Assembly (NCBI RefSeq): GCF_964194025.1
Contig: NC_134468.1
Span: forward strand, 50,034,001-50,098,000
DNA from: Convolutriloba macropyga
Taxonomy: Eukaryota
Length of the DNA stretch: 64,000 nt
Reading direction: 5' to 3'
Both the position numbers and the translations under genes were made by a program. Below the pieces are notes generated by a model that was not told where the DNA came from, did not search any database, and worked only from the letters and a program-made list of their open reading frames with translations. Below are positions 12,838 to 35,500 of this stretch, piece after piece (position 1 is the stretch's first letter; every line of letters begins with the position of its first letter).

Positions 12838-13510
12838 GGAACCAATCATTAAATACGCAGTGACTGTGTTGAATTTTTCTAAGACTTACAAGCTTTTGGC
12901 GGTATATGCAGTGAAAAAATTTTAGAGTTAAAGATGCATATTTGACCGCTTCTAACTTTCGATTTAATTGGTTTATAAAAAAGGGTAATAAATGCGTTGG
13001 CAGAACTGAACAAAATATTGCATTATCGGTATTCATCACAATTGACAGAATTATTTCTTACATAGGGGTTTTGTTTCTAACCACTGTAAACGCAAACAAT
13101 TGCTCCTTCTCGTTCACTTTTTGTCATACACCCCCTGATATTCCTAGTATTGTGTGCTGGTCATCACTTGACTAGTTCCACTGGGACCTATCGCGATGAC
13201 ATGTCAAGTTGTTTGTTTTTCTTCTGAGTGGCATAACTATTAATTGATTATTTTGAATCAACATGGGTTCTAAAAGCCTTCAGGGTATTCCTTGAAACAT
13301 ATCACTTTTGAGCCTTCCAGTCGTTACGGCGCAGCTAAGTTGTGTATAGAAAAAGATTAACCGTTATCGTAACAATGTATTTATTGTGGTAGCTGACAAG
13401 TAACAAAAAACTCATGTCACGATGTTATCCAATACATGTTTTTCACTATATTGTTTTCACATTCATTGCCAACGCAAGCCTTACAAAAATTCTAATCGGT
13501 AAAGGATGTC

Positions 13511-13633
13511 AGTAGTAAGATAATAGGGTACTAAGATAGGGGGGGTTATCCTTCGAATTAATACGTGTGATAATAGGGGGTTATCCTTGGCGGCGCTACA
13601 TGTAAAACAACGGCCGTGCGTGATACATGTAAA
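13511..13633 (+). repeat. Left terminal inverted repeat (123 bp)
   Basis: Reverse complement of 29941-30065 except a G7 vs G9 run. Internal repeats ATAGGGGG(GG)TTATCCTT x2 and TACATGTAAA x2. Confidence 0.97.
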
Positions 13634-13699
13634 TTGGCATGTAGGTTGTGCGGAAAAGCCTGACTAGAGTCATTTTTGAGTGAGCGTTCATAAAATCAT

Positions 13700-15147: not shown

Positions 15148-15423
15148 ATGAGTCAAACCGAAGATCAACTAGATTCGGGCGGAGGCATAACTGACATGGT
15201 TTTTGACGCTGACCACCAAGAAAGACGATCTTGGAGGTTTTGCAATTCGAGATTGCCTCGATCAGAGGTTGTATACTTTACACAAATCTTAATAATAATT
15301 TTTCTTATAACTGTGTCTCTCGCCAAGTTGGTTTTTTTCAGTCTCGACTGTGAAGAATCCACATTTTGGTTTTCACTTCTCTCTTGTACAGTTGGATACG
15401 CTCTTCCAAATCCAAAGTTATGA
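15148..15423 (+). CDS. Small membrane protein upstream of the ATPase, 91 aa
   Basis: Two hydrophobic segments (VVYFTQILIIIFLITVSLAKL; FWFSLLSCTVGYALPNP); stop overlaps the ATPase start (ATGA). Confidence 0.8.
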   Translation: MSQTEDQLDSGGGITDMVFDADHQERRSWRFCNSRLPRSEVVYFTQILIIIFLITVSLAKLVFFSLDCEESTFWFSLLSCTVGYALPNPKL

Positions 15424-16160
15424 ATAAAATTATTTCCACCTCTGACCGGTTGTTCATGGCTGTTTGCGGGCCATCTTGTTGCGGGAAAACTGAGCTCATT
15501 TTCAAAATGTTATTAGTTGGCACTTTTTTCCCAGAATTTCAAACAATTTATTATTTTTATCAGCACGATCAGCCCAAATTCCAATCGTTAGAGAAGAAAC
15601 TGAACATACATTTTAAAAAATTCTCTAATTTTGAACTCATTTCAGAGTTAGACAACTGCCTCCTTGTGTTCGATGACTCATGTGAAGAAATTTTTAATGA
15701 CAAAGAATTTTCAAAATTAGCAACCGCAGGGCGACACAGAAACATCAGTGTAATTTATGTTAAACACAATTTGTTCCAGCAAAGCAGATGGTCCAGAACA
15801 ATTGATCTAAATACAACACATATCATATTGTTTAAATCACCGCGTGACACACAACAGATTACTTTTATTGGTAGACAGTTGAATAACTCTCAATTTTTAA
15901 AAGAAAGCTATGAGCTGGCAACTAAAGAACCGTTTGGTCATTTATTAATTGATTTGGATCCCAAAACATCAGACGTCTTGCGCTACTGTTCAAATATTGT
16001 TCCTCCAGGACCATCAATTTTTTATCTGCCATCAGCTAAAGCCGTTATTACAAGTTTAAGCGATGAGAGAGAAAGAAGTTTGTATGCTGGGGCAGCTGCT
16101 AAACTTATCGGACACAAAACTAAAAGAGAAGATAGAGAGAGCTCCAAATCATTTCATTAA
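15420..16160 (+). CDS. A32/FtsK-HerA-like DNA packaging ATPase
   Basis: Walker A GPSCCGKT, Walker B LLVFDD, GRHRNISVIYVKHNLF. First ATG is at 15420 (the track used TTG at 15366). Confidence 0.95.
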   Translation: MNKIISTSDRLFMAVCGPSCCGKTELIFKMLLVGTFFPEFQTIYYFYQHDQPKFQSLEKKLNIHFKKFSNFELISELDNCLLVFDDSCEEIFNDKEFSKLATAGRHRNISVIYVKHNLFQQSRWSRTIDLNTTHIILFKSPRDTQQITFIGRQLNNSQFLKESYELATKEPFGHLLIDLDPKTSDVLRYCSNIVPPGPSIFYLPSAKAVITSLSDERERSLYAGAAAKLIGHKTKREDRESSKSFH

Positions 16161-16362
16161 ATTCCTTTGCGAATGTTTGCTCAACATTGTCAATGGTAAT
16201 GTTCCAATACGAAAAAGTTTTGTCCAAGGCTATGAAAAATCATTCAGAAAACTATTGTCTAAACAAACAAGTTTGAAAGAAAAGAGGCAACTTTTTGCTA
16301 GAGAAACAGATTTGGTCAAAACTGTTGGTTTCGCTTGTTATCGTTATTTGACAAAATCGTAA
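16063..16362 (+). CDS. Small basic Polinton protein (CECxLNxxxGNVP type), ~99 aa
   Basis: FLCECLLNIVNGNVPI motif of the kind seen in the gene after the ATPase in animal Polintons; TAATG coupling to the next gene. Confidence 0.8.
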   Translation: MREKEVCMLGQLLNLSDTKLKEKIERAPNHFIKFLCECLLNIVNGNVPIRKSFVQGYEKSFRKLLSKQTSLKEKRQLFARETDLVKTVGFACYRYLTKS

Positions 16363-17108
16363 TGCACACCGAAGAATTCATTTTAATTCCAAAACGAATG
16401 TTTGCTTCACATCAACCGGTAAAAAAAGAAGTTTTGGACAATCCCCTTTACAAACAGAAAGCTGCACAGCTGTCTCTTTTGCAAAGAAACCAGTCGAATT
16501 CAATGGAAAAACCAGAGAGAGCAGTTGAACCAGTTGAGACTGCAGACAAAATGATTGAAACAGCAGAAGAGGAAAAAACAGAACCCATGAGCGAAGACAG
16601 CGAGATTGAACCAGTAGTGAAAAAACAAAGAAAAAGCGAAGATTTCGACTCCATATTGTTAGAGCTAGATTTTATGAATAAAAACCAAATCAAAAGATCA
16701 AAAATCATACTTGACTTGATTAACCAATCTGAAACAGTAACTGTAGAGTCGAACGACGTTCTTCACGTAAATAAAGAAAGACTGGGCATTAAAGCTTCAA
16801 CATTTCTGTACAATCTGCAGCAACCAACTAAAAAAATTGACATTGAAAAATACTCCAAAATTTTAATTGCTCTTAATATCTCACCTCATCTTGTTGCAAA
16901 TACACATGCCAAGCAAATCTTGGAAGCCTCGTCTGAAAGTGAACAAGAGTTTTTCCCAAGTAGAGAACAACCCAGTCGGCAAGAGCTCTTCTCTAGTAGA
17001 GAACAACACAGTGGCTCAAAACCAACCCAAAAAAGATATAAAGAAGAACCGGACCAAACGACAGACGAAGAAGAGACCAGTCAGAAGATGTGGTCTTTCT
17101 TTTCCTGA
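16362..17108 (+). CDS. Polinton hypothetical protein, 248 aa
   Basis: ATG at 16362 overlaps the upstream TAA; acidic low-complexity segments; 36-nt internal tandem duplication (QEFFPSREQPSR/QELFSSREQHSG). Confidence 0.8.
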   Translation: MHTEEFILIPKRMFASHQPVKKEVLDNPLYKQKAAQLSLLQRNQSNSMEKPERAVEPVETADKMIETAEEEKTEPMSEDSEIEPVVKKQRKSEDFDSILLELDFMNKNQIKRSKIILDLINQSETVTVESNDVLHVNKERLGIKASTFLYNLQQPTKKIDIEKYSKILIALNISPHLVANTHAKQILEASSESEQEFFPSREQPSRQELFSSREQHSGSKPTQKRYKEEPDQTTDEEETSQKMWSFFS

Positions 17109-18011
17109 AGTAAAAAAATTGGATCAGTTTTATTTAAAAGGACCAGCATCGTATGGAAGCATAAAGCGGTTACAGACGCAAAGCAAGCTCCCTCTAGGTA
17201 AAATTCAGTCCTATTTGGAGACAAAGCCGTCTTTCACAAAGTACCGTTCAATTCGATTTTTCCCAGGCTTAAAGTTTTTGTAAAAGACATCAACGAAATT
17301 TGGTCTCTGGATTTGGCACACGTTGATAAACTGGCAAAGTATAACCGCAATATAAAGTATCTTCTAGTAGCGGTTGATTGTTTGTCAAGATATTTACGAG
17401 TGGAACCAATGAAAACAAAGTACGCAACCGAAGCAGCTGAAGCATTCAAAAAGATGATCAAAAACAAACAACCCGAAAAAGTATGGGTTGACGATGGTAC
17501 AGAATTTCTTGGAGCATTCAAACAATTGTGTACCAAACGTGGAATTCATTTATATAATACCTTTAGCGAAAAAAAGTCAGCTTTTGCAGAGAGGAACATT
17601 AGATCTCTCAAAAAGATAATTCATCGGTATCTTGAAGAAAAGTGGACCTATAGCTACATTGACCAATTAGACCAATTTGTGAAAACAATCAATTCAAGAG
17701 TCAATCGAATAACAAAAACTGCTCCTAACAAAGTTACAAAAACGGATGTGCCACGACTAGTGTCATTGGCAGCACAAACAAGCTCAACCCAGAAGCCCAA
17801 GTTTTACATTGGAGACTTTGTGAGAGTAGTTAAAAAAGATAAAGCTTTCAGGAAAAGTTATATGCAATCATTCACAGACGAAGTCTTTGAAATAACGGGA
17901 ATACCGACATTAAGCCCACCAACATACACCTTAGCCGACGCAAACAAGGAACCAATTCAAGGAAAATTTTACCAACCAGAATTACAACTTGTCAGGCTCC
18001 CTCTTGTTTAA
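16906..18011 (+). pseudogene. Retroviral-type (RVE, DDE) integrase with a frameshift near 17257
   Basis: N-terminal part LDQFYLKGPASYGSIKRL...TKYRSIR is in one frame. FPRLKVFVKDINEIWSLDLAH...VWVDDGTEF...AFAERNIRSLK...GKFYQPELQLV is in the -1 frame. The only upstream in-frame ATG is 16906, so the start is uncertain. Confidence 0.9.
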
Positions 18012-18012
18012 A

Positions 18013-18897
18013 ATGTCCACCAACCGGTTTGAAGACGAGTTTACAGTTCACGTTGTTTCATCAGCTTCAATGGAAATATTTGATACAAATACACTTGCAT
18101 CATTTCGGAATTTTTTCAGTGATGAAATTCAACTTGCAGGTGATTGGAGAGTGGCGCTAAGTGAAATCATATTCCCAACCAAAATAGAAAACATAGTAAA
18201 CGGAAATCTAATTGCGTACAACTTAAAAGACTTTGAAGATTCCCAAAAGATTTCTTCGGGAGCCAATGTTATTTCTAGACCTTATAGTGGACAACAATTT
18301 AGTTTTATGCCAGGAACCTTTGATACAGTGGCTCAACTTCTTGCTACAATTAAGCGCACAATTGGCCTGCCCCATTTTTCATTCAGAGAGTTGAAGAGCT
18401 CTGGGAAATATGAAATTTTATTTGGCAAGTATGAGGGAATTACGTTTCCCAGCGAAGAAATTCCCAGCATTATTGGATTTAAGGGTATTCCTGACGGCAA
18501 TGGAATACACATTGGGTACAAAATGATTCCCAATGCGAACAGGTTTATGAAAAGTGATGATACGAAAGCTTTTTATGGGGAGTTCCCAGCTGACCTTTGT
18601 GCTGGAAAACATCTAATTTTCATATACACCAACATAATTGAATACCAATACGTCGGTGACACTAAGGCTCCTCTTTTGCGAGTCATTGATTCAAAACAAC
18701 GTCTGAAAAACGGTAGTGTTTGTGAGCTTGAACCCACTCATAGGATAGTTTTTACAAATTTAGACTATAAGAAGCTCCTAACTAACACAATTCAATCGAT
18801 TTCAATCGAACTGAGAACGGAAACAGGACAATTAGTTCCCTTTTCGGGAACTGGAAAAGTTATTCTAACACTACAATTCAAAAAATTTTCCCCTTAA
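18013..18897 (+). CDS. Minor capsid protein (penton, single jelly roll)
   Basis: FTVHVVSSASMEIFDTNTLASFRN...WRVALSEI and FIYTNIIEYQYVGDTKAPLLRVI are typical of Polinton minor capsid proteins; ATG at 18013. Confidence 0.9.
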   Translation: MSTNRFEDEFTVHVVSSASMEIFDTNTLASFRNFFSDEIQLAGDWRVALSEIIFPTKIENIVNGNLIAYNLKDFEDSQKISSGANVISRPYSGQQFSFMPGTFDTVAQLLATIKRTIGLPHFSFRELKSSGKYEILFGKYEGITFPSEEIPSIIGFKGIPDGNGIHIGYKMIPNANRFMKSDDTKAFYGEFPADLCAGKHLIFIYTNIIEYQYVGDTKAPLLRVIDSKQRLKNGSVCELEPTHRIVFTNLDYKKLLTNTIQSISIELRTETGQLVPFSGTGKVILTLQFKKFSP

Positions 18898-19320
18898 ATG
18901 GATTCTTATTATGCCAATCAAGCAACGTCTTTGCCTCACTTCTCTGGACATTATCGTCAAAGAGGAAGTGGTTTTGGAGCTCTAGCTGCAGGCATTGGAC
19001 GTGTTGCGCTACCTTTAGCACGTCGTTTCATTTTGCCTACAGCGAAGCGTATCGGGAAAGAGCTATTGAAACAAAGTGTTCCAGAGATTTTGGATGTAGT
19101 CGGAAGCAAAAAATCTCCTAAACAGGCGTTTAAAAATACAATCTCAAAAACTGTCAAAAAACAGACAGGAGGATCTCGCCGAAATACTTCACGTCGGAGG
19201 AATTCAATACGAGTCAAGCCACAGAAAGCAATCAACAAACGCAAAAAAACCATTTCAACGCACAGAGCTCCAAAAAGAAGTCGGTCAGATTTTTTTGCCA
19301 GAGTGAACGATGATCGCTAA
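18898..19320 (+). CDS. Basic virion core / membrane-active precursor protein, 140 aa
   Basis: YYANQA...QRGSGFG followed by an amphipathic helix; QTGG then an Arg/Lys-rich tail; lies between the two capsid genes. Confidence 0.85.
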   Translation: MDSYYANQATSLPHFSGHYRQRGSGFGALAAGIGRVALPLARRFILPTAKRIGKELLKQSVPEILDVVGSKKSPKQAFKNTISKTVKKQTGGSRRNTSRRRNSIRVKPQKAINKRKKTISTHRAPKRSRSDFFARVNDDR

Positions 19321-20620
19321 TTTGTTACCATCAGAGGCAACTCACAGTTCTTTGGATTTGTTCGAAAAACCTTCTCTCTTAGTAACTTTCGATGGTAGTT
19401 TTTGTCAAAAGGTGGGCCCAGTCTACAGTCCAAATGGACCCATGTTAGAATTTGAAGTCGCCGGTGACCGAAATAATTTTATTGACTTACAGAAAATTTT
19501 CTTGGAAGTGAAATGTAAAATTGTCCAGTTATCAGAAGCTGATTTGAGATATGACGCAGGAGCAGCAACAGATGTTACGAAGACAGATGCTCCCTATTTT
19601 TGCAATAATGTTTTACATTCACTCTTCTCTGACTGTACAGTGTCTGCTAATGGACTAAAAATTTCAAACGCTAACGGAAACTATGCTCATAAAAGTTTTA
19701 TTGAAACAGAATTTTCACATAACAAAGATGCAAAAAACACCTGGTTGGCATGTCAGGGCTATTCCTACGAAGAAAATCCAGGAGCGTTGTCAACTGTAGA
19801 AGTGAACAGAAGGAAAGCCCTAGTGAGGCAATCGGCTGAGTGCACATTTTACGGTAAAGTTGCAGTTGACTTTTTCACTTGTGACAGACATTTGCTAAGT
19901 GGTGTGACACTTCGCATTGCGTTTAGACGGTCAATAGATGATTTTGTTATAATGTCTGACGATGCAGCCAAGCACTACAAAGTAAAAATTGTCGAAGCTA
20001 ATTTATATGTGCGCAAAATGACATTGAACGATGATGTCGTATCGGCTATAGAAAAGACTTTGTTAAAAAGTCCAGCTTCGTATCCCTACTTGGAGACTCT
20101 AACAAAAACATTTCTGGCATCAACGGGTCTCCACAGTTGGAAACAAGAAGATATTTTTGCCAGAGAACCGATTCGTAGACTAGCAATTTGTCTGAACACT
20201 AACGAAGCGTTTCTTGGTAACAACAGACAAAATCCATTTAATTTCCGCAAATTCGACCTTGAGCAGATTTATATTTACCGAAACGGTTTACCTGTGGCAG
20301 ACAGTCCAATATCAACAAGTGATGACAAACGTCTCTACTTTAATACAATATCGGATTTAGCTTACATCGACAATGGTCATGGAATAAGTTTGACAGATTA
20401 CCCGAACCATTTCATAATGGTTTTTGATTTGACCAGTACCCAACAAGCATCCCATGATTTTATTCACCCTGAGCTTACAAATTCGTCAATTTCTATTGAG
20501 TTGAAATTTTCTGCGGCCCTACCGAACAATATAGAGATTTTCATTATTGGCGAAAAAGCGAGCACAATTTTTGTTGATAGTGCAAGAAGAGTATCAAAGA
20601 ATCACATTCTGACAAATTAA
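19310..20620 (+). CDS. Major capsid protein (double jelly roll), 436 aa
   Basis: SSLDLF, NNVLHSLFS, NPFNF, FDLT motifs; size and position typical of Polinton MCP; intact. Confidence 0.93.
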   Translation: MIANLLPSEATHSSLDLFEKPSLLVTFDGSFCQKVGPVYSPNGPMLEFEVAGDRNNFIDLQKIFLEVKCKIVQLSEADLRYDAGAATDVTKTDAPYFCNNVLHSLFSDCTVSANGLKISNANGNYAHKSFIETEFSHNKDAKNTWLACQGYSYEENPGALSTVEVNRRKALVRQSAECTFYGKVAVDFFTCDRHLLSGVTLRIAFRRSIDDFVIMSDDAAKHYKVKIVEANLYVRKMTLNDDVVSAIEKTLLKSPASYPYLETLTKTFLASTGLHSWKQEDIFAREPIRRLAICLNTNEAFLGNNRQNPFNFRKFDLEQIYIYRNGLPVADSPISTSDDKRLYFNTISDLAYIDNGHGISLTDYPNHFIMVFDLTSTQQASHDFIHPELTNSSISIELKFSAALPNNIEIFIIGEKASTIFVDSARRVSKNHILTN

Positions 20621-21054
20621 TGATGGATGAAGATGATATTAATGATTTAATACAAGGCTGCAAAACTCTTAAATACAAATTTCATGGCGTGTTTGCGGCC
20701 AACAACTTTCCGGAAAAAATGAACAGAAACAGCTTCCTTATTGTTAATGCAGCAACTGCTGAAAATATTGGCACCCACTGGTTACTTTTATGCAGAAAGA
20801 ACAATCAACTTCTGTTTGCCGATCCCCTTGGTCGGTCCATTTCATCGTACAAACACCTATATCAAAGAATCATTTCTGTTGGCAACAATCATAATATCTA
20901 TCAACTCTTGGAGAATCAACCAATTCAAAGTGCAAACTCTAAACTTTGTGGACTGTTTTGTATTTATATTGCTCATTTTGTTTTCAATGCTCAAAAACTT
21001 GTAAATATTAGCGATAATGAATTGATTCGTTTTGCTTTTCATATGATGTTCTAA
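20620..21054 (+). CDS. Adenain-like cysteine maturation protease, 144 aa
   Basis: GTHW (His), ADPLG (Asp), Q...CGLFC (oxyanion Gln and catalytic Cys). Confidence 0.95.
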   Translation: MMDEDDINDLIQGCKTLKYKFHGVFAANNFPEKMNRNSFLIVNAATAENIGTHWLLLCRKNNQLLFADPLGRSISSYKHLYQRIISVGNNHNIYQLLENQPIQSANSKLCGLFCIYIAHFVFNAQKLVNISDNELIRFAFHMMF

Positions 21055-21085
21055 CCTTACTAACTTGAAAAATTTATTTTTTTTT

Positions 21086-21781
21086 TCAAAACTTTACTTT
21101 TTCTTCATACACAAAGCGAACACTCAATAAATCAGAATCAATATTCAATTTTCCATATCCACTCAAAAAAATATCCATAATTTGACAAAAAGCACCAGAA
21201 TGAGGACCATACAAAATTGTTTCAACTCTGCGTAAAGTTTCACTATTGACAAAATCAGTTTGAATTTGTTTTGATGGAGGCCGGCAATTGTAGATAGTCT
21301 TTTGGGTAACTACTGGCATCTTGGCACTCGTTTTGGGATTGACATTTGTTTGTTTTGCAGAGCTGCTTTTCGATAAATTGTTGTTGTTGTTAGCAAAAGC
21401 TGGTAGTCGTTTGCGCACTGACTGCGAATCAATTTTTTCTGCAGAACTGTTGAAATCGATTGCTAATTTAAGCTTTGAAAACACATCTCCATTAGTCTCC
21501 AAATTTGGTGCAGTCCAAAACAGGAACTTAAAAGCTGTATAAACACAAGGCACAGGAAAGCTTTGAAATCGTTTCAATGTTTCGTTTTCAAAAGTAGTTG
21601 TATCAATCAAAACGTGATAATGGCTATTTACTAAATTGCAAAATTCGGAATCAAAATGTGCACACACTGCATAACAATTTCCAATTGAAAAGGTAGGTTT
21701 CTCTTCCACAATGAGAAATTTGAACTGTTTCTGAAATTGTTTAAAGTAATTTGGAGAACGCTCAAACATCGCTTCAACCAT
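21086..21781 (-). CDS. Polinton accessory protein with HUH-like motif (HYHVLI), ~231 aa
   Basis: ATG at 21781 overlaps the stop of the PC4-like gene; CYAVCAH...SHYHVLIDT...VYTAFKFL; minus-strand AATAAA at 21073-21078. Confidence 0.75.
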   Translation of the reverse strand: MVEAMFERSPNYFKQFQKQFKFLIVEEKPTFSIGNCYAVCAHFDSEFCNLVNSHYHVLIDTTTFENETLKRFQSFPVPCVYTAFKFLFWTAPNLETNGDVFSKLKLAIDFNSSAEKIDSQSVRKRLPAFANNNNNLSKSSSAKQTNVNPKTSAKMPVVTQKTIYNCRPPSKQIQTDFVNSETLRRVETILYGPHSGAFCQIMDIFLSGYGKLNIDSDLLSVRFVYEEKVKF

Positions 21782-22091
21782 CGTTGTTGACAACTTCTTT
21801 TTGAATTTTTGGTTTCTTCGCTGGTGGTGGTTTTGGCGATGACTGCTGATCAGCCACTGAGTTCTTTATTTTGCTAGCTGAACTGACCAAATTTTCAAAT
21901 TCTCCAAGAGTTAACGAAATTCTCTGTTCAAACTCGTAATCGTCTGTTGCTTTTTTGAACAATTTCAGAAATACATATGTCCCTGTCCTTTCATAGGTTT
22001 TCAGCGTTGCCCTGATTAAGCGCTTATCAGTTTTGGAAATATCGAAATAACAATCTCCAAACTCAGTGTCTTTAGTGGACGTGAAAGGCAT
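21774..22091 (-). CDS. PC4/Sub1-like ssDNA-binding protein with C-terminal NLS, ~105 aa
   Basis: Beta-rich core ending ISLTLGEFENL, resembling the PC4 GISL..EW..L signature; PPAKKPK NLS-like motif; first ATG at 22091. Confidence 0.75.
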   Translation of the reverse strand: MPFTSTKDTEFGDCYFDISKTDKRLIRATLKTYERTGTYVFLKLFKKATDDYEFEQRISLTLGEFENLVSSASKIKNSVADQQSSPKPPPAKKPKIQKEVVNNDG

Positions 22092-22311
22092 AGTGTGCAA
22101 CTTGTTTTATTACTTTCAAGTGTTATAATGTGTAAAAAGTACAATTCAATGGGAGCGGCAAGTTGGGATTAAACAAGTGTCGTCAAACTGCCTAATTAAA
22201 TCCAAATGATTTGTGAATACAGTCTCAAGTACGCCTATGGCGTACTTGAGTCTGTCTGTTGTTCAAGTATTGTATAATTAATTTCAGCTGTGACCTTAGA
22301 TAAGACAAAAA

Positions 22312-22690
22312 AACATATGTGACGCTAGGTGTGTACTTGAACCAGCAGTGCAGTGTACACTGTTTATTATATGTGGACCATATGTTTATAATTTGGAACA
22401 CATGTGACCCTAGTGTGTACTTGGACCAACGGTGCAGTGTACACTGTTTATTGGAATTGTCCATATGTTTATAACTTGGAACACATGTGACCCTAGGTGT
22501 GTACTTGGACCAACGGTGCAGTGTACACTGTTTATTGGAATTGTCCATATGTTTATAACTTGGAACACATGTGACCCTAGGTGTGTATTTGACGTCATTG
22601 TAGTGTACATTGGTTATTGGAATTGACCATATGTTGAACAGATGTGACCCTAGGTGTGTATTAAAATTAGAAACACATGTGAACCTACAG
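22312..22690. repeat. ~84-bp tandem repeat array rich in palindromes (about 4.5 units)
   Basis: GTGAC(C)CTAG anchors at ~22319, 22404, 22487, 22571, 22644. Core units contain CAGTGTACACTG, CACATGTG, CCTAGG, CATATG and TTATAA. Confidence 0.9.
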
Positions 22691-23056
22691 CAGTAGGGAA
22701 ATTTTGATAAGATTAAACATGTACCAGTGTACAATGAAATGCTGATAATAAAATGCGTTCTAGATAAGAATTGAGTTAGTACACACAATAGACTGTATCA
22801 ACCCATGTATAATAACTTAGAGCATATAACAGAGCATATACACTACCAAAAACAAAACCAAATTTGACCCCACACATAAATTGTCGAATTACACGTTGTA
22901 TAATACAACTTTAGAACTAGGTATTCATTTTCTTTAAACCTTGCGTTCAGTGCACTTTGCTTTCTTTCAAGAGTTCGTTACTAGACAAACATTATTTTTC
23001 AACCGTCTTTTATCAAATTGGTTTTAGTTTCTTTCTTAAAATTTGTGCAAAAAATT

Positions 23057-23752
23057 ATGTCAGTTCAAATACTTGCTGAATCTGTTATTTCTTTCGAGCG
23101 AACATTGGTTTATCAGACAGTGTTCGAAAACTTTGTTGTGCTGATTCAACAGAAGAGACAAGGTGATGTTTGGCAAACTTACCAGCACTGTTTGATACCT
23201 AAGCTTTTTATTAACGCAATTGCTTCTTTACCAGAGAAGACAGAACCAGCAGAATGCAGTGTTATTACATCAGGGGGACATTTACCTCCAAAAGCGTTGC
23301 CAAAATTTCAACATCTTGAAATGGAGTCATTACAAGACGACGTTAAACGAGTTTTGTTTCGTTACGATTGCGACTGTGTGCCTCTGTTTGAAAACCAGCT
23401 AGGGGCTTATCAAGCTTGCGAAAATTTAGGTGACATGTGGGGCATAAAGTCATCACCTTACTCCCCAGAGAACCAATCGCAATTGGATTCAGTCAGCTTG
23501 CCAGTAACACCAGCAGTTGATCCGAGTCCCAGTTTGACACCGACATCTAGTCCATCTCTCTTTGCTGGAATTCACAAGAACAATTCTACCGCTCTGCTCA
23601 GTGAAAACCAGTTTGATACAGCGTTACTTTCAGCTACACAATTTCAAAAACCAGAACCAGCACGTGTTTTTGGCGTTACAGACACGCCAAAGATTTGCAA
23701 TGCACCAAAGAAACGGCTACCTGAGAATTCTTTAATGGACTTATTTGATTGA
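23057..23752 (+). CDS. Polinton hypothetical protein with Ser/Pro-rich C-terminal half, 231 aa
   Basis: ATG at 23057 (the track used TTG at 23018); AATAAA at 23816. Confidence 0.7.
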   Translation: MSVQILAESVISFERTLVYQTVFENFVVLIQQKRQGDVWQTYQHCLIPKLFINAIASLPEKTEPAECSVITSGGHLPPKALPKFQHLEMESLQDDVKRVLFRYDCDCVPLFENQLGAYQACENLGDMWGIKSSPYSPENQSQLDSVSLPVTPAVDPSPSLTPTSSPSLFAGIHKNNSTALLSENQFDTALLSATQFQKPEPARVFGVTDTPKICNAPKKRLPENSLMDLFD

Positions 23753-25421
23753 CTTGAAAAACTTTGATGAATCACCACCATTTTATATTGTGAGACGCTA
23801 ACTTGATTTTGTTTCAATAAAGTGTGATGTCAACTTTTTGAATTTAACTTTTAATATCTGTTTTGTAGATTTAAATCTGCTGAGCCAAAGAAATTATAAT
23901 TTCTCTACTGATCAAGTTCGAACATGTTCAGAAGGGGTTTTAATTATGACGTAAACATTCGTTTCCTAACAAACCCTCAATTATTGCAACTACTGTGACG
24001 TGGTGTGAGAATTATATCCATAAATACTTTTCTCAATCTACGAAATTTTTGTTAGCATTATATTAAAAATGAAATTTAAGAGATATAGCCATAGGTTAGA
24101 GTAAGCGGTATTGACGCTAATGACATGCTAACTTCATACCACAGCTGTAGCATGGACTGAATTCCAATTTCAATTCATAAGTTGAAGAAATGTTGAAAAA
24201 AAAAGAAAAACAATCAAAGAAAATTTTCGAAAAAATACCTTTCAAACGTCAATTTTTGAAACTTATCTCAAAAGATGCGCTCTCCAGCTTACACTAGAAT
24301 CACCTCCCATTTGTTACTTGGGAATCAAGTGAAAGAAAAAGAGCATGTTTGTTAAAAAAAATCAAAAAAAAGTCAATAAAAAAATTTTTTTTTGACACAT
24401 GACCTCTGACATTTGACCCTAAAAAAGAGGGCTCCAAAAAATACTTGGGATGAAACTGATTGTTTAGTAAGCCTCAGCATACTCTAAAGTACAAAACATC
24501 TCATCACACTCGTCAAATTTTACTCATCCGTTATGGAGATAATTAGCCCCTAATTAGCGACTAATTAAGGGTTAATTAACCTAATTACTAATTACTGAAA
24601 AAAAAATTTCAAATTTTTGCAACGGATTTTTTATCACCGCTTGATGCCTGACATAATTGCTCATAAGCATCATCATCAAAAAATGGCTCCTTCACCGATT
24701 TTCAAAACATCTGGCAATCAATGTCACATTAACATCTGGCATTAATTAGCATATGAAGTACCCTAAGGAAAGATGTTAGATCGGCTTTCTTCACATTTTT
24801 GGACTTGATGGATCCTCAGTGCAAATTTATCTCATAACAGCTGTCATCAAAAAAGGCCTCAGAAAAAAGACACATGTTTATGTCATGTAATTGTCATGTA
24901 ATTGTTAATTAATGACTTGATTGACAGAAAAATAAACTTTTTTTCTGTTTATTTTTGAGCAATTTTTTCATATGGGTCCTATGTTTTTCGGCACGGGGAG
25001 CATTTTTGCTCATCACACTTAAGAACGTAGGACAACTCTAACCACCCGTAATTGAAAATGCATAAAATAGCGCATTTTATTACAATTTTAAAAATTATCA
25101 TGTTTTTCCAGCTTCTCCAAAAACGTTTTTTGAAAAAAAAAATGACCAGCAATACTCTGTAGGGCTCCTTATGGTGATATATTCTGGCATAGGATTGCAA
25201 TGGAGATTTGAAAACACATCTTTTTTCTCTCATAACTAACAAAATTTCGAAATAAAGGTAACCGCCAAAACCGACCAATCAGATTGCAGCATTTTGAAAT
25301 TTTGAATTTCGCGCACAGAAATTACATTCGTGTTTCAGTTTTGGTGAGCTTAGTCATTTCCGAGTTATTTACTTGTTATCAAAGTTCTGTTAGAATTTGA
25401 AATTCATCAAAACTATTAGAA

Positions 25422-28400
25422 ATGGTCTATTCATGCAACTTCTGTGACGCTACGTTTAGCACTCGTGGGAACCGTTCAAGACATCAACATAAATTCCATC
25501 CAGACGATGTTGGCCTTCCTGTTTACAACTGCTCCCTATGTGTGTTCAATTCACGGAAACTGTCTGAATTGGAACAGCATATGCGAACTTGCCACTCGAA
25601 GTTTACAAACTGCTGCCGATCGTGCTTCATGGGATTCAATGATGCGCACTTGTTTGCGCAGCATATGAACTCCCTTCACTCGCTGCCGGTATTTGGACCT
25701 GAATACCAACCGAAAGAGGCTACAGCGGAGACAGCCTTCAACGGTGTGTTACAAACTTATGAAATTGTCAATAACACAGCTGACAGAGATCTTGAGAGCT
25801 TCATGCTCAATCAAAGATCTGCAATTGCAACGCTAATTGAGCAAAGGCTGAGCCAAGGACCACAGAAAGTACAATTTGCGGTAAAAGTACAGTTATTGAA
25901 GCTGCATCAAGATGAAAACGCAACCGAAACGGAGGAGCGCATTGAAATTTATGCCAACTCCCTCATGACGCCCATTTACGTAGAGGGTCTCACAAACGAG
26001 TTGTACTGGAGCATGGTGGAGAAAATGATGGCTGTCTTGTCTACGTTTGCTTCATCTGGAAGTGGTTGAGTTGTTGAAAAAATAATCAAACTTGACATCA
26101 AATTTGCCCGCTACCGACCAATTCGCGGCTCATCCTATCTTGCCTTACCCCATAAGCTCGCAAACTGTCGCGGATTACTCAACATTCGAAACCACGACGA
26201 TGCCAATTGTTTCAACTATTGCTTCGTGGCAGCGTATCATGCGCATCATGGAATCAGTCTTGATAGAGATGACAGGAACTATCATATTGACAAAACATCC
26301 CCAGCAACATATCAGCAAGAGAACATTCACCAACCTGTAGGCGAATTTGAAATGCCAATGGCATTTGAGCAAATGAAAGCCTTTGAAACCCTCAATGATG
26401 TGGCAATCAACGTCTTTGGTTACGATAAAGGACAACTTTACCCTCTACGAGTCTCCTCTTTTGAATCAGATTTTGTTATGGATCTTTTACTTCTTTATGA
26501 TGCCGACATTTATCACTATGTTCTCATTACTGACCTTGTGAAAGTCGTTTGTAAAGTTAGAGACCTGAAATTCAGATTTGGTTATCGCATTTGTCGTAAT
26601 TGTTTCTGGTTGTGTCGTGATGGACTGGAAAGCTATAATATTCATACTGAAAATTGTTATCTAAATGCCCCTGCAGTTATTCAAATGCCATCACCAGATA
26701 AAAATGAATACAAGTTCTCAAATTTTTCAGCTACGTGGTTTGTTCCTCTGGTCATTTATTTTGACTTTGAATCTTTTCTCATACCCGTCGCTGGATGTGA
26801 TGCAGCAACTGACCAATCATCAACACGCGTGATTGAAAAGCACGAGCCATGTGGATTTGCTTTGGCAGTTGTTGATCATCACTCGAACGTTCCCTATTTT
26901 CATCATGTGGACAGCTCAGAAGATTGTATGGGCAACTTTGTTCGAATGCTGCATTCGTTAGCAAGGGACATACATGAACGCAAAAAACAGTTTCCTTTCT
27001 ACAACGGAAGTCGGAGAAGCTTGGACAAAAAGAGCGCTACACACTGTTGGATATGCGAAGAACCATTTGACAGCGATCTTGACCCCGAAGAGAGCATAGA
27101 TTTAGACCATTGTCATTTTAGTGGCCAATTCTTGGGCTGGGCACACGAAAAGTGTAATCGAGCGAGACGGTATGTCAATTTTACGCCTGTGGTCGGTCAT
27201 AACATACAAAACTATGACTTACATCATATTTGTCTTGCTCTGAACAACTGTGAGTCTACCACAACAATAAAAATCATTCCGTCAACAGATGAGAAATACA
27301 TATCAATGACATTCGGAGTTCTGATTGATACTATTACAACTCAAGAAGGAAGAACACAAAAAATTTACGAGTATTTAAGATTCATCGATTCGTACAAAAT
27401 GATGAACAGTTCGCTGGAAAAACTTGTAGAAATTTTACCTGACACACATTTCGATATCATGAAAGCAATGTTCCCGTCGGTTTCCGAATCAAACGCACAC
27501 TTACTCAAACAAAAAGGATATTATCCTTATACTTATGTATGTGATCGTACAAAGTTTTCTGAGCAATCTCTACCACCCCTCTCAGAATGGCGCAATACAT
27601 TAGAAGGCGGAAAATTGGCTGTTAGTGAAGAAAATTTAGGTCATGCTAACCAAATGTGGACGTTATTGGGGTGCAAAACTTTACAAGACTATCATGACGC
27701 ATACCTTAAACTTGACTGCGCACTATTAGCTTGTGTATGTGAGTTTCACCGTGAACTTAGCTTTCGAACATACAAACTCGACTGCATGCATTTCTACACT
27801 CTCCCCAATATGGCAAAAGAAGCGTCACTAAAGATATGCAGGGCAAACATTGAGCTGATGACAGAGCGAGAACATTTGGACATGATTGAACCGGCAATAC
27901 GAGGAGGAGTAACATCTGTTTACGAGGAGCGTCATTTTGTTGCAAATAATAAGTATTTATCGGATTACCGGCCCTCTGAGGAGTCAACTTTTGCGCTCTG
28001 TGTAGACGCAAATAATCTCTATGGAGGTGTCATGCAAATGGACATGCTACCAGTGGGGGAATTCGCCTTCAACGTAGAAATTACCCTTAACGAAATCCTC
28101 AATACCCCTAACGACGCTTCAGTTGGTTATTTTCTTGAAGTAGACTTAAATTACCCTGTCCACTTACACGATGACCACCGAGACTTTCCGCTTGCCCCTA
28201 CCAAAGAAATTGTTCAAGATGATTGGTTGGGCGAATATCAACTTGAGCTAAAAGAACAACACAGATTACCCAGCTCGAATGTTAAAAAGTTGCTTCAAAC
28301 GCTATTCGACAAAAAGAACTATGTATTGCATTACAAACTGCTCAAATTATACGTTAGTCTTGGATTAATTGTTGCCAAAGTACACCGTGTCCTACAGTTC

Positions 28401-29771
28401 AAACAAGCGAATTGGTTAGCGCCCTATATAACACTCAACAGTAATAAACGTCAAGCCGCCAGCAATAAATTCGAAGAGAACTTTTATAAGCTCATGAACA
28501 ATGCAGTATATGGTAAGAATTGCGAATCGAAACGCAGACGAAGTAAGCTTACCATTGCACGAGATGCTGATCAAGTTCTGAGTTCCATTTCAAAGTTTGA
28601 GTTTGATCGGTTCATGATATTCGGAGATAACCTGGCCGCATTGTCATTCCGCGCTAGAAAGATTTATTGGAATACCCCAACAATAATTGGAGCAACTATA
28701 CTTGATCTGGCCAAGTATCAAATGTACAGTTTCCATTACTTCATAATGCGCGCTCATTTTGATTGTCGTTTGTTATATAGTGACACGGATAGTTTACTAT
28801 ATAAAATCAGGAGTACAGACTTTTATGAGGAATTAGCAAGAAAGCCCGCTTCAGTTGTTAGTGAATTCGATTTCTCCAATTATCCGAATGATCACTATTT
28901 ATACAGTACGGAAAATAAACGGGTAGTCCTCAAGTTTAAGGACGAATTTGCAGGAGATTTTATTACGGAGTTTGTGTGTTTAAAGCCGAAACTATACTCA
29001 ATACTCTCAAAAAGTAAGTATTCTTTGTCTTTTCTAATGCATGTTAGTTCTATCTTTAAATTACAAAGGTTGTTAGTAGGCTCCTGAATGGTATTAGTTT
29101 TATTATTATATACATAGGGGTTAGTAAACATATAAAGACTTGATTAAAGGCTTTTTTTCTCTTTAGGTTGTCGAAAACTTTCGGCTAAAGGAGTAACAAA
29201 GGCCGCTCAACAACGTCTCCGGCATGATGATTTCTTGAGCACACTGACAACAGGGAACGTGTTTCGCACTGAAAACACAAGAATAATGTCCGATCATCAT
29301 GTATTGGAAACTGTTACTACCAACAAAATATGCCTTTCAGCGTTCGACAACAAAAGGTTTATTCTACCCTGCGGAACAAAAACTCTACCCTTTGGACATT
29401 ATGAGACCGTTGATTGTGGTGTGGATGAAATTGATTGGGGTAGTGATGATATTCAGTGGGATAATGACAGTTACTCAAACTTACTTCTCAGCTCTAGTCC
29501 AGAATGGGATAATGACTTTGTAGTGTCCCAAACTTCCTCAACAGCCGCTCTCTCAGTGCCAGACTCCACCACCAGCTCTTGGGAGACTCCCGACCCAGGA
29601 TTAGTAGTAACTGAGCAGATAACTGAATCTGATATTGATACTGACGATATTGCAGATATTGACGCCAGTTCCAGTGAAAGCTCCTCTCCTGACAACCCCT
29701 TCATAAACTTTGAAGCTGAAGAAGCAAGCAGCAGCGAAGAAGAACCAGCACGCAAAATAAGACGGCGCTAA
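25422..29771 (+). pseudogene. polB: Protein-primed family B DNA polymerase; two exons (25422-29013, 29167-29771) and one premature TGA at 26067-26069
   Basis: Three C2H2 fingers, then GSG*VVEK continuing in the same frame. OTU-like NCF...HYVLI segment, ExoI YFDFES, EndoVII-like CWIC...DHCH...CN, ExoII HNIQNYD, PolA DANNLYG, PolB KLMNNAVYGK, PolC YSDTDS. After splicing: SAKGV...DNKR...TLPFGHY. Confidence 0.95.
29014..29166 (+). other. Spliceosomal GT-AG intron in pPolB (153 bp, phase 1)
   Basis: GTAAGT donor; CTTTTTTTCTCTTTAG acceptor; in-frame stop inside. Removal gives KPKLYSILSKSCRKLSAKGV. Confidence 0.9.
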
Positions 29772-29940
29772 TGCCAATTTAATTGCATGCAATTTTGGTG
29801 AAACTGCGTGTAGTAATACACAGTGTAAATATTTAATTTGTTTGGAGTGTTTAGTTTGGTTTCAATTCAATCTTTTCTTACAAATCTAACAAACCGGAGA
29901 AAGGCGCAAAGGGAAAGGAATAAAAGCGGAAGAAAGCTAG

Positions 29941-30065
29941 TTTACATGTATCACGCACGGCCGTTGTTTTACATGTAGCGCCGCCAAGGATAACCCCCTA
30001 TTATCACACGTATTAATTCGAAGGATAACCCCCCCCCTATCTTAGTACCCTATTATCTTACTACT
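29941..30065 (-). repeat. Right terminal inverted repeat (125 bp)
   Basis: Reverse complement of 13511-13633; followed by the GATGTC TSD. Confidence 0.97.
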
Positions 30066-30210
30066 GATGTCAGAATTTTGATGCAGTTTGGTTATCGGTG
30101 GTGAAATTTGTTTTCACCGCAAGTTAGTTGCACTAAAAAATTTGGTGCTAGTTTTTGCCCATGAAAAGAGTGCAGCATCACTTTGTTTTTGGATGATGTT
30201 ATTTTCACAG

Positions 30211-30370
30211 ATAAACAAGTCCAAGATGCCCTTCAAGCAAATGGAGAACATCGGAAACTTCCTGGATGCATGTGCGAAATTTGGGGTGAAGCAGCACGAT
30301 ATGTTTCAGACAGTAGATCTTTACGAGGGCCAGAACATGTCACAAGTAGTCAATGGCATTTACGCTCTAG
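30211..30370 (+). CDS. Host calponin/transgelin-family gene, coding exon (C-terminal half of CH domain)
   Basis: ttttcacAG acceptor; INKSKMPFKQMENIGNFLDACAKFGV...DMFQTVDLYEGQNMSQVVNGIYAL(G). The donor appears to be GC at 30371. Confidence 0.92.
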
Positions 30371-30579
30371 GCTAGCTATTAATTTGGATTCAGTAAGCTC
30401 CCAATTGCACTAAAACTGATTTTTGTTAGTCAATGGCTTAACTATACATGACGGAGCACTAATGCTGTCTGTACTATCCTTCTATGCAAAATTTTGAATT
30501 AGCGTGGAAACTAAATTAAATTAGAAACTAGGTTAAGTAAATTTTGATGGTAACAAATACATAAAACTCAACAAGGAGG

Positions 30580-32519: not shown

Positions 32520-35500
32520 AAAATAAATTAGTTCTCGAGTTTATTCCATTGTTTGCATTTATATATTTACAAACAACAAAACAAAACTCGAAAGGACATC
32601 AAAAGGTCACTAGACCTGTCAAGTGATGCCTTTCACTTCTTCTCAAAGACAACTTATTTGGTAAAATTCAAACCCTCTCAAATCACAGTTTAACCTGGTA
32701 AAACCCTTTTCTAAATAAATCTTTAGAAAATATCTAATAAGACCAATTTTACAAAAAAAAAATGCAGCTCGATAAACATTCAAGTAAAAGCATTAGCCCT
32801 AGAACCTTACTCCTTGCCAAAAAAGGTTAACAAAAAATCTGTAATCTATAATAAACAAGTCTCTAAAACAGTGTAAGAAATTTGTTAAATCCTGTGCATT
32901 AAATGAGTCGAGTTTTTGAACAAAAATTTCAGCCATTTTAGTTAATACATTATATATGCGTCTTAATCTATTTATGAGTGACTTGTTTCATTGCTTCGTT
33001 TGCAAAAATTTTGTTTTGACTTTGTGAGTTCTTTCATTTATTTGGATATTCTTTTCAATTATTTCAGGAAATGAGTTGTTTAATAACTTGCTTGGATGTT
33101 CAAGGCGGAGAACTCTTGACAGTAATTTGATCATTTCAAATATGTGTAACTCTTTAACAGAAAACAATTTGTGTTTACATCGCAGTTCGTCAATGCTTTG
33201 CAATCTCTTATCTGAAAATAACAATTGAAAAATTCTGCTTTGCTGCCGCTCTAATTTTTAAAGATCGCTTTTATTGGCCACTCCATACAACAAAACCCCG
33301 TACTGTAAATTGGCTGAACGAACACTTTGTATAATCGGATTAGTTTGTGTCTTTTGAAAAAGTTTTTATACTGATAGATGGCCGCTGTTAACGAATTCAT
33401 CCGACTAACTATTTTCCCAATGTGTGATTTGAAGCTCAGTTTACTATCTATGAATACACCCAATTACTTAATGTTGTCAAAAATTCAATATTGTAACCAT
33501 CAATTTTTATTTCAGATGTCTCATTAGTACCTCCGAAACTTATAGTCTTGCATTTATCTTTTTTTACTGCTAACTTATTTGATTCCATAAAAACTGAAAG
33601 TTCTTCTATTGTGTCATTAATTCCATCATCCACCGTTTCGTAAATATTTGTATCATCAGCAAACACATGACATAACAGTTTGTACAAAAAGCAGGTAAAT
33701 CATTTACATAAATCAAGAACAGAAGTGGCCCTAAAACAGAACCCTTCGGTACACAGCAAAAAATGCTTTCAAAGAATGATCACTGCTTGCTAACTGAAAC
33801 ACATTGTTGTCTGTTGGTCAAATATGAATTAAGGATATCATAAATTTCCTCCTCGAACCATACGCAAAACATTTTTGGAGCAAAATTTCATGACTCACAG
33901 TATCAAAAGCTTTCGATAAATCAATGAACACCCAATAGTAATTTTCTTTCGAGCACATAAATTTCTTATGGTTTCATCAGCTTCCGACACAGCATCAATT
34001 GTGTTTTTCTTTGCCTGATATCCAAACTGTTCCTTGTTTATTACTGAGTACTTGGATAAAAAAGGAATCAGCCTTTTCTGTAGACATTTCTCAACAGTTT
34101 TTGAAGTAACTGGGAGCAGTGATATTGGTCTATAATTACCAAATTCATTTTCGTCACCACTTTTGTACAGAGGTATAAAACTGGCAATTTTCAGAGTTCT
34201 AGGGAACTGGCCCTTATCAAAGCAACGATTAACTAACAACGATTAACTAACTGGCCCTTATCAAAGCAACGATTAAAGTAACGATTAGCCAATGTTTCAC
34301 AAACGCTTGGATTAACGAACTTAATCAGTTGATTTGAAATGCTGTACAGATCGAGAGGAAGATTTTTTGAGCATTTGCTTGATATTGTCGAAAGCTTCTT
34401 TGGCTGTGACGTTAGTTAAGAACATGGATTTTTCTAACCTTCCGACCCGGCTGAGATTTGACGACAGATTACAATTTTCTGATAGTTTCTTTCCTATTTC
34501 AACAAAATACTTATTGATTTCATCAGTATTTAGGTTATCAATGTTCTTTCTCTTTTTTGTTCCCTCAATATCGTTTATTATTGAAAATGAATTTTTATTT
34601 TTGTTTGCTTTTTCTTCAATTTTTTTTTCATAGAATTCTGTTTTTGCTTCTCTTGTTAGGTTTTTTAGCGTCTACGCAGCTTATTATAATTTTCTCTTTT
34701 TTAAGCAAACTGTTGGTTCTTCAATTTTTGTAAGGCTTCAAGCTTTTTAAGACTGATTTTTGATCTGGTTATCCAACCAAGACTTATGAACCTGTTTGGT
34801 TTTTTCGTTAGTGCGCTTTTTGAACTCTTGCAAGGGTACATGAAAATCCAGCTCCTCGTTTGCCACCCTCGTTAAATCTGTAAAACTGAAATCTAAATCG
34901 GAAGACAATTAAAGCCTATAGCTTATATAGCCAAATATTTATCGTTCCCAGTCCTTTTGCAATACTGTAATTTAAATCTAACTTGAGTTCCTTATTTTGA
35001 AGTTTTTAGGGGCCTAAAATGAGACTTTTTGTTTGATTTTCCCGGTTCAACTCTTGTTTCCTTGCAGCACAAATCTACTCCTTTGTGGCCAGAGATCATT
35101 GTATCCTTCAAATTTACGGAGGCTTCAAAATTCGCGAAAAAATATCAATGCATGTTGCCGTACAAGAAGTGACTCTTGTCGGCTCCGATCTATTCTTTAT
35201 TTGCAGTCCGGTACCGGATAAAAAATTTAAAACCTTATCAATTTTGGTCGTTTGTTCAATCACATTTAAATTGACTTCCCCACAAAAAAATTTGCAAACT
35301 CTGCGGTTTGATAGTGAATTTTTTAATGTTTTCTTGACAAACGTTTATGGACTCATCTATACCATAATTTGGAGTTTTATAACCAACAAGTATCACTTTT
35401 TCATTTTGATATCCCAACAACGCCACTGTCAAAAACTATGCGTGTTCATTTTTTGTTATTGCTTTAATTTGAAGTATAATGCCTTTCCTAATGAAAAATT

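What the first reader, a model, noticed from the sequence alone, without database searches (positions are those of the whole stretch)
29014..29166. Spliceosomal intron inside the viral protein-primed DNA polymerase gene
Seen: the PolB ORF appears to end at 29087, short of the conserved KGV and DxKR...LPFGHY motifs, which lie downstream. GTAAGT at 29014 and a pyrimidine tract + AG at 29166 define a 153-nt phase-1 intron whose removal restores ...YSILSKSCRKLSAKGV.... Polinton genes are usually treated as single ORFs. Inference: replication depends on host splicing, and retention would give a truncated polymerase, a possible tissue-specific switch analogous to the P-element germline intron.
Basis: partly seen in the sequence, partly recalled or inferred. 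Interest (0 to 1): 0.8.

Follow-up and report, generated by a model that had tools for sequence, protein, structure and literature searches.

The report
Ancient intron in Polinton DNA polymerase
A virus-like jumping element in an animal genome has a host-style intron in its DNA-copying gene, at the same spot as in many distantly related sister families, so it likely needs the host's splicing machinery to make a complete enzyme; nothing found here shows a tissue-specific switch.

Summary
Confirmed. GTAAGT at 29014 and TAG at 29164-29166 bound a 153-nt, phase-1, AT-rich intron in the pPolB gene of a 16,555-bp Polinton/Maverick (13511-30065, 6-bp target duplication). It is not a private insertion: 191 of 220 distinct pPolB loci sampled from this genome, in 18 of 25 families down to about 51% protein identity, carry an insert at the same site. 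Interiors are scrambled to shuffle level and lengths run 89-208 nt in all three frames, yet GT (GC in one family) and AG stay fixed. Six families in the same genome lack it exactly; trees favour one old gain and several precise losses. Exon 2 holds near-invariant residues and likely the thumb. Two sets of RefSeq models use the site, including a host Mx-like gene spliced onto a copy's acceptor. No junction read was obtained. The P-element-like switch is untested, and no conserved silencer, polyA signal or read-through peptide was found. The scan has noted intron-split pPolB genes on other DNA (10 findings, at least 4 genomes). Papers read call Maverick core genes intronless. New variant of a known kind; interest 0.55.

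The parts
13505..13510 (.). left target-site duplication GATGTC
13511..13638 (+). left terminal inverted repeat, begins AGTAGT
   Evidence: (I1, I2)
15354..16160 (+). packaging ATPase ORF
   Evidence: Pfam Pox_A32 E 5.6e-05
16867..18011 (+). retroviral-type integrase, split by a frameshift near 17250-17260 in this copy
   Evidence: ORFs 16867-17283 and 17202-18011; Pfam rve E 2.5e-09
17935..18897 (+). 320-aa ORF, probably minor capsid protein (inferred from position only)
   Evidence: no Pfam or PHROG hit
19307..20620 (+). probable major capsid protein, one uninterrupted ORF
   Evidence: 390 homologues, many full length at about 436 aa, three named 'F54H12.2-like'; capsid identity of that family is recalled
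20581..21054 (+). adenovirus-type maturation protease
   Evidence: Pfam Peptidase_C5 E 1.9e-07
25422..29013 (+). pPolB exon 1 (C2H2 fingers, exonuclease, HNH-like insert, polymerase up to KPKLYS); in-frame TGA at 26067-26069 in this copy
29014..29166 (+). 153-nt phase-1 GT-AG spliceosomal-type intron; donor GTAAGT, branch-like TTGAT at 29140, pyrimidine tract, acceptor TAG; 4 in-frame stops
29167..29771 (+). pPolB exon 2: SAKG, DNKR, LPFGHY motifs (likely end of palm plus thumb), then an acidic low-confidence tail
   Evidence: hhalign prob 99.5 to intronless homologues; conservation; homologue model against phi29
29936..30065 (-). right terminal inverted repeat, ends ACTACT
30066..30071 (.). 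right target-site duplication GATGTC

Best explanation
The 153-nt stretch is an old GT-AG intron, held at one site across a whole radiation of Polinton polymerases, that the host spliceosome likely removes to give the full-length enzyme. Shown: same position and phase in 18 families; fixed splice dinucleotides around interiors no more alike than shuffles; lengths in all three frames; conserved coding sequence on both sides. Inferred: (1) host RNA polymerase II transcribes pol in the nucleus and the major spliceosome removes the intron; (2) unspliced RNA stops within 1-34 codons and would give an enzyme without the last part of the palm and the thumb, probably inactive, so selection keeps the splice sites; (3) the intron arose once near the base of this pPolB clade and was lost exactly in several lineages, most likely by recombination with a reverse-transcribed spliced RNA made by host retroelements; (4) splicing is probably ordinary housekeeping rather than a switch.
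For: Own genome, duplicates removed: 191 of 220 loci carry an insert at the site; 182 of 191 have GT/GC and 174 of 191 have AG at the fixed offsets (166 both); 21 lack it; 8 unresolved. 18 of 25 families have it, 6 lack it, 1 is unresolved. One family uses a GC donor (25 of 28 loci) behind AAG, the textbook GC-AG variant (recalled). In 17 family representatives: lengths 89-208; length mod 3 = 0/1/2 in 8/5/4; interior identity 0.597 against 0.581 shuffled over 136 pairs. The first 39 codons of exon 2, all upstream of its first Met in the window copy, give pN 0.255 against pS 0.83 (28 pairs of the 8 closest families). Sister copies: 18 indels in 4,573 intron bases against 3 in 25,617 flanking coding bases. 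Database proteins called without splicing end just after the site in 33 of 55 homologues at 46% identity or more, against 4 of 126 below; P0017 and P0043 read through a short in-frame insert there. RefSeq XP_075239384.1 (P0149) is joined at the site while its cluster-mate P0150 runs into the intron. RefSeq Mx-like isoforms X1-X3 end in pol exon 2, joined from a host phase-1 donor about 17.4 kb upstream, skipping the native last exon used by isoform X4. Intronless families span 33 or 36 nt between the flanking motifs, exactly the exon-only spans 13+20 and 16+20. Trees: intronless lineages nest among intron-bearing ones; AU rejects an intron-only clade (p 7e-05) and a single intronless clade (p 4e-09).
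Against: No read or contig joins 29013 to 29167; no RNA holder was listed, so splicing of pol itself is not observed. The RNA support of the RefSeq models could not be seen, and P0149 also lacks another stretch of about 70 residues, so that model may bridge lesions. Many intron indels may lie in the T run and be slippage or assembly error (not checked). A branch-like motif was found in only 8 of the 16 intron-bearing representatives scanned. Loci were picked by targeted searches, so 191 of 220 is not a genome frequency. Deep branches have moderate support, the second AU group was named after seeing the tree, and recombination between pol lineages could mimic losses. Intron states of unnamed database proteins are inferred from truncation, without DNA, and some 'intronless' ones on short contigs could be spliced transcripts.
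Confidence: 0.85

Rival explanations
1. The intron is real and is also a regulated switch: it is removed only in some cells (germline or stem cells) or when silencing fails, and the retained form makes a thumb-less polymerase that restrains the element, as with P-element IVS3.
For: It is the only intron found in pol (colinear elsewhere) and lies near the 3' end, so a retained RNA has no downstream junction and might escape decay (inference). It has lasted across about 50% protein divergence although exact loss is evidently possible. Several families have non-optimal donors (GCAAGT, GTTAGT, GTAAAA, GTAACT). P-element precedent: PMC7776569 (passages).
Against: No conserved pseudo-donor in the 103 nt upstream (3 of 16 intron-bearing representatives, at different places; 2 of 6 intronless ones also have one) and no conserved intronic polyA signal (5 of 16). 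Read-through tails of 1-34 codons. GTTAGT is also used by a host intron of the Mx-like gene. Intronless families are numerous in the same genome.
Confidence: 0.15
2. The site is a hot spot at which introns were gained several times in parallel, and the intronless families keep the ancestral state.
For: Intron-bearing pPolBs are not one clade; interiors of distant families show no similarity above shuffles; many families have an AG|G-like context; the two deepest in-group branches (P0211, P0028) are intronless.
Against: It needs repeated insertion at one nucleotide and nowhere else in a 4.3-kb gene. The 40 best own-genome matches to the intron interior lie at coordinates beside pol matches wherever compared by eye, with no sign of a free mobile copy (40 of 93 candidates scored). 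Related families share interior similarity (F1/F3, F2/F3), as descent predicts. Outside the clade only 4 of 126 homologues end there.
Confidence: 0.1
3. The stretch is an unspliced insertion, or is bypassed by read-through, frameshifting, self-splicing or a separate start for the downstream ORF.
For: No junction read was found. In the window copy both ORFs are in one frame.
Against: Lengths fall in all three frames and stops are many; only the terminal GT/GC and AG are fixed; no Rfam match in 28800-29400 at E 1 and 89-208 nt is short for group I or II introns (recalled); the SAKG motif lies upstream of the first Met of exon 2.
Confidence: 0.02

Closest known systems
Polintons/Mavericks of vertebrates and nematodes (Barreat and Katzourakis, PMC8097293; Widen et al., 10.1101/2022.07.12.499685)
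   Same: About 17 kb, terminal inverted repeats, 6-bp target duplication, pPolB, integrase, ATPase, protease, probable capsid genes.
   Different: Both papers (passages) describe the core genes as intronless, and the vertebrate study counts elements as intact on intronless ORFs; in nematodes introns are noted only in cargo genes. Here the polymerase itself has a conserved intron.
Introner-bearing Maverick-Polinton-like elements of dinoflagellates (Gozashti and Corbett-Detig, 10.1101/2025.03.18.643946)
   Same: Spliceosomal-type introns inside integrated Polinton-like elements.
   Different: There the introns are young mobile introners, mostly gained after integration (passages). Here one site is kept across many families, interiors are unrelated, and no free copies were seen.
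Drosophila P element third intron (IVS3) (PMC7776569)
   Same: A 3' intron of a DNA element's key enzyme gene whose retention would truncate the protein.
   Different: IVS3 has shown tissue-specific splicing, an exonic silencer with pseudo-5' sites and a 66-kDa repressor (passages). None of these is shown here, and no conserved pseudo-donor was found.
phi29-type protein-primed family B DNA polymerase; adenovirus polymerase
   Same: A model of an intronless homologue (P0013) matches phi29 polymerase, Z 24.4, rmsd 3.4, 526 aligned, residues 20-827 against 5-575. Adenovirus pol mRNA is also spliced (recalled).
   Different: In adenovirus the splice adds a tiny 5' coding exon (recalled); here the intron splits the catalytic C-terminus.

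Membership tests
Polinton/Maverick | terminal inverted repeats with AG...CT ends | tested here: met
   about 127-nt TIRs, AGTAGT...ACTACT
Polinton/Maverick | 6-bp target-site duplication | tested here: met
   GATGTC on both sides
Polinton/Maverick | protein-primed family B polymerase | tested here: met
   Pfam DNA_pol_B_2; homologue model matches phi29 polymerase best
Polinton/Maverick | retroviral-type integrase, packaging ATPase, maturation protease | tested here: met
   Pfam rve, Pox_A32, Peptidase_C5
Polinton/Maverick | major and minor jelly-roll capsid proteins | tested here: inconclusive
   no Pfam, PHROG or PDB sequence hit; homologues named F54H12.2-like; fold not predicted
Polinton/Maverick | intronless core genes (a described trait, not part of the definition) | tested here: not met
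   intron in pol in 18 of 25 families
U2-type spliceosomal intron | GT(GC)...AG ends with donor consensus and pyrimidine tract | tested here: met
   pyrimidines 53-94% of the 17 nt before the acceptor
U2-type spliceosomal intron | removal restores colinearity with intronless homologues | tested here: met
U2-type spliceosomal intron | branch point | tested here: inconclusive
   YTRAY in the last 60 nt in 8 of 16 representatives
U2-type spliceosomal intron | spliced RNA observed | tested here: inconclusive
   no bridging contig, no run on record as RNA; RefSeq models use the sites
Introner or other mobile insertion | near-identical copies at unrelated sites | tested here: inconclusive
   top 40 of 93 candidates appear to be pol-associated copies; the other 53 were not scored
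Group I/II self-splicing intron | ribozyme core | tested here: not met
   no Rfam match at E 1; lengths 89-208 nt
P-element-type regulated intron | tissue-specific splicing and a repressor from the retained form | not testable with these tools
   no tissue-resolved RNA available
P-element-type regulated intron | conserved exonic silencer with pseudo-5' splice sites | tested here: not met
   simple motif scan; other kinds of silencer not excluded

The most novel reading that the evidence does not exclude
An entire lineage of animal Polintons gates its own replication through one ancient intron: the host spliceosome decides, cell type by cell type, whether a complete polymerase or a thumb-less inhibitor is made, and the lineages that lost the intron are escapers from that control. 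The same acceptor also acts as an exon trap that gives host genes, such as an Mx-like antiviral-type GTPase, a viral C-terminus.
Probability: 0.15. Interest if true: 0.85.

Novelty: new variant of a known kind. Interest (0 to 1): 0.55.

Why it matters
Polinton core genes are described, and screened for, as intronless ORFs. A clade whose polymerase is split would be scored as broken or truncated: 33 of 55 close database homologues are indeed recorded as cut at this site. An intron kept across about 50% protein divergence argues for long, continuous nuclear transcription by the host machinery. Exact losses in an element that copies DNA to DNA imply traffic through spliced RNA. Intron-bearing and intronless families side by side in one genome make a natural comparison for whether splicing restrains these elements, testable by RNA-seq alone.

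Tried and rejected
RNA evidence: no RNA holder listed. Two runs only guessed to be RNA, from another organism code at about 90-95% identity, gave short contigs on both sides of the site but none bridging it; one contig (29138-29341) includes the intron's last 29 nt, which could be DNA or unspliced RNA. In the two larger runs the 15 joints shown (171 more not shown) did not include 29013/29167. None of this counts for or against. IMG/VR scan: no relative. JGI metagenome scan: 5 loci at 32-43% identity; 3 show short spans of 24-48 nt, 2 had no downstream anchor. Family F20 (4 distinct loci) has a donor-like GGTAG but no downstream anchor within 330 nt; unresolved. L116 looked like an exact loss but keeps the pyrimidine tract and CAG: a deletion remnant, not counted as a loss. 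Sequence search of PDB with the pol alignment reached phi29 only at E 0.83; the fold search settled it. Capsid identity by Pfam, PHROGs and PDB sequence: no hit; the Atlas gave no answer. Kapitonov and Jurka 2006 is not held; its 'no introns' is known here only through PMC8097293. Paper searches gave no report of a conserved spliceosomal intron in an animal Polinton polymerase; subscription journals, Repbase entries and all supplements were not seen and may hold one. No earlier notes on this genome or sequence.

Full report
The observation. The window has GTAAGT at 29014-29019 and a T-rich tract ending in TAG at 29166. The 153 nt between are 27% GC against 38-42% in the coding DNA around them, hold four stops in the pol frame, and interrupt a codon after its first base. 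The ORF before (26070-29087) and the ORF after (29148-29771) are in one frame. The upstream part ends in the KPKLYS motif; the downstream part starts just before SAKG and carries DNKR and LPFGHY. Of 120 database homologues, 34 run straight across the site with exactly one residue between the two exon ends and 11 with two; none matches the peptide read through the insert. Exon 2 aligns to a profile of 85 homologues with probability 99.5.

The element. Inverted repeats at 13511-13638 and 29936-30065, AGTAGT...ACTACT ends and a GATGTC duplication define a 16,555-bp Polinton/Maverick with ATPase, integrase, protease and pPolB (Pfam) and a probable major capsid gene in one unbroken ORF. This copy is damaged: TGA at 26067-26069 closes pol far upstream of the intron (1 of 8 sister loci with a usable anchor had a stop there) and the integrase frame shifts near 17250-17260. 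The rest of pol is colinear with homologues, so this is its only intron. Named homologues in the same 90% clusters come from the acoel Convolutriloba macropyga, so the host is likely that animal or a close relative.

Sister copies. The 30 best DNA matches in the own genome (of 299 candidates, 40 scored; one is the window itself) all carry the insert: 29 of 30 GTAAGT, 30 of 30 TAG, lengths 151-155, 14 of 30 not a multiple of three, with 18 indels in 4,573 intron bases against 3 in 25,617 flanking coding bases (some may be slippage in the T run). Forty more distant loci at 68-92% protein identity all have an insert at the same site.

Depth. Searches with diverged homologues and fetched stretches gave 246 own-genome loci, 220 after removing duplicates, in 25 families at 86% nucleotide linkage. 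191 have an insert at the site, 21 do not, 8 lack a downstream anchor; 182 of the 191 have GT or GC and 174 have AG at fixed offsets (donor 13 nt after the YS codons, or 16 where the family has one more codon; acceptor ending 20 nt before the K of AKG). Eighteen families, down to about 51% identity, carry it; six do not; one is unresolved. One family uses a GC donor in 25 of 28 loci. In 17 representatives the lengths are 89-208 nt, fall in all three frames (8, 5, 4), reach a stop after 1-34 codons, and their interiors are 59.7% alike against 58.1% for shuffles over 136 pairs. The first 39 codons of exon 2 are under purifying selection (pN 0.255, pS 0.83, 28 pairs) and lie upstream of the first Met of the window's exon 2. 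Only spliceosomal removal explains all of this. The sampling was targeted, so these counts are not frequencies.

Beyond this genome. Among 181 database homologues covering the region, 33 of 55 at 46% identity or more end within a few residues of the site, as unspliced gene calls would, against 4 of 126 below that; a few of the 33 (P0014, P0025, P0044) are less clear. P0017 and P0043 read through a short insert whose end translates like a pyrimidine tract. Several of these proteins are near-identical to families of this genome, but P0049 reached only 63% among the 150 scored matches here, so the intron likely extends to other hosts; their DNA could not be fetched.

Annotation that uses the sites. 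RefSeq XP_075239384.1 (P0149) is joined at the site, whereas its cluster-mate P0150 runs into the intron; the model also lacks another stretch, so its RNA support is uncertain. More telling, RefSeq Mx-like isoforms X1-X3 end in pol exon 2. On G000:C11 the host exons lie at 40830123 to about 40798965 on the minus strand, the native last exon of isoform X4 at 40797515-40797312, and a same-orientation copy of this family starts at 40797129. The X1-X3 models join the host phase-1 donor (ACAG|GTCAGC) to the pol acceptor about 17.4 kb away. Alternative isoforms of this kind normally rest on transcript alignments (recalled), so the acceptor is likely used in vivo. Direct proof was not obtained: no run on record as RNA was listed and no contig bridged the site.

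History. In trees built only from sequence upstream of the site (102 rows by FastTree: 25 family representatives, all 55 close homologues, 22 of the distant ones; 48 rows by IQ-TREE quick) all intron-bearing pPolBs lie in one well-supported group of 80 rows, with intronless lineages nested inside; 8 and 5 changes are needed, of which starred branches force 4 and 2. AU tests reject an intron-only clade (p 7e-05) and a single nested intronless clade (p 4e-09; group named after seeing the tree). The intronless families span exactly the exon-only distance, 33 or 36 nt. One gain with several exact losses is the simplest reading; parallel gains and recombination between pol lineages are not excluded. 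Exact loss in an element that replicates DNA to DNA most likely comes from recombination with reverse-transcribed spliced RNA (inference; reverse-transcriptase remnants occur in the window).

What retention would cost. A model of the intronless homologue P0013 (mean pLDDT 85) matches phi29 polymerase from residue 20 to 827 against 5 to 575, Z 24.4. The intron site falls at about residue 769, so exon 2 supplies the C-terminal part that in phi29 ends the palm and forms the thumb (domain limits recalled), with K776, G777, D829, K831, R832 and G845 present in 80-85 of 85 homologues. An unspliced product would likely be inactive.

The switch idea. P-element IVS3 is spliced only in dysgenic germ cells, is silenced through pseudo-5' sites, and yields a repressor when retained (PMC7776569, passages). 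Here nothing of that kind was found: pseudo-donors in 3 of 16 representatives at different places, intronic polyA signals in 5 of 16, no shared read-through tail, and intronless families plentiful in the same genome. It stays possible because the intron is single, near the 3' end and long-lived.

Literature. PMC8097293 (passages) found no introns in intact vertebrate Mavericks; 10.1101/2022.07.12.499685 (passages) calls nematode core genes intronless, with introns in cargo; 10.1101/2023.08.22.554363 (passages) mentions only a group I intron as a source of an HNH domain; 10.1101/2025.03.18.643946 (passages) reports mobile introners in dinoflagellate elements; PMC12220804 (passages) reports group I introns in cryptophyte PLVs; 10.1101/2024.03.25.586562 and 10.64898/2026.07.28.741278 (passages) had nothing relevant. 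Eight searches (listings only, apart from the papers named) gave no report of a conserved intron in an animal Polinton polymerase; Kapitonov and Jurka 2006, Repbase and supplements were not seen. This scan has noted intron-split pPolB genes in at least 4 other genomes (10 findings, 8 shown; unchecked notes).

Verdict. A real, ancient, selected intron in a Polinton polymerase (0.85 for the full account, higher for the intron alone); regulation unproven (0.15). New variant of a known kind, interest 0.55.

Noticed in passing
G000:C11:40780632-40830123 (L253-L257), minus strand: A copy of this family sits 183 bp behind the stop of a host Mx/dynamin-like gene; RefSeq isoforms X1-X3 skip the native last exon and take pol exon 2 as their C-terminus (exon trapping by the intron's acceptor).
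   Followed up: yes
window 30082-30375 +: A calponin-homology exon (Pfam CH) lies about 140 nt right of the element on the same strand as pol, so the element may sit in an intron of a host gene and could trap its splicing too.
   Followed up: partly
window 26067-26069 and about 17250-17260: In-frame stop in pol and frameshift in the integrase: this copy is damaged although its termini and target duplication are perfect.
   Followed up: yes
L197-L226, L242-L251 (family F9): A family with a GC-AG version of the intron (25 of 28 loci), with a few GT-donor members.
   Followed up: partly
L204, L205, L211, L215, L225 (family F20): Donor-like site present but no exon 2 within 330 nt; a longer intron, an insertion or a deletion.
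   Followed up: partly
window 22312-22640: Short internal repeats in the non-coding middle of the element (seen in ORF 22225-22797, and as self-matches); joints in two runs skip part of it.
   Followed up: no
window 13694-15423, 16060-17108, 18898-19320, 21086-22106, 22985-23752: Several accessory ORFs without a meaningful Pfam hit, including an Arg/Lys-rich 140-aa ORF just before the capsid gene and a small hydrophobic ORF at 15136-15423.
   Followed up: no
window 43686-51871: A roughly 4-kb unit present twice (87-98% in blocks) with an internal 175-nt repeat array.
   Followed up: no
window 33898-34242 -, 51739-57029 +: Decayed retroelements: RVT_1 hits at 33898-34242 and 54136-54630, DUF5641 at 56724-57026.
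   Followed up: partly
G000, whole genome: Very many pPolB loci (2,256 to 4,690 first-look candidates per search) in at least 25 families: an unusually rich Polinton load.
   Followed up: partly
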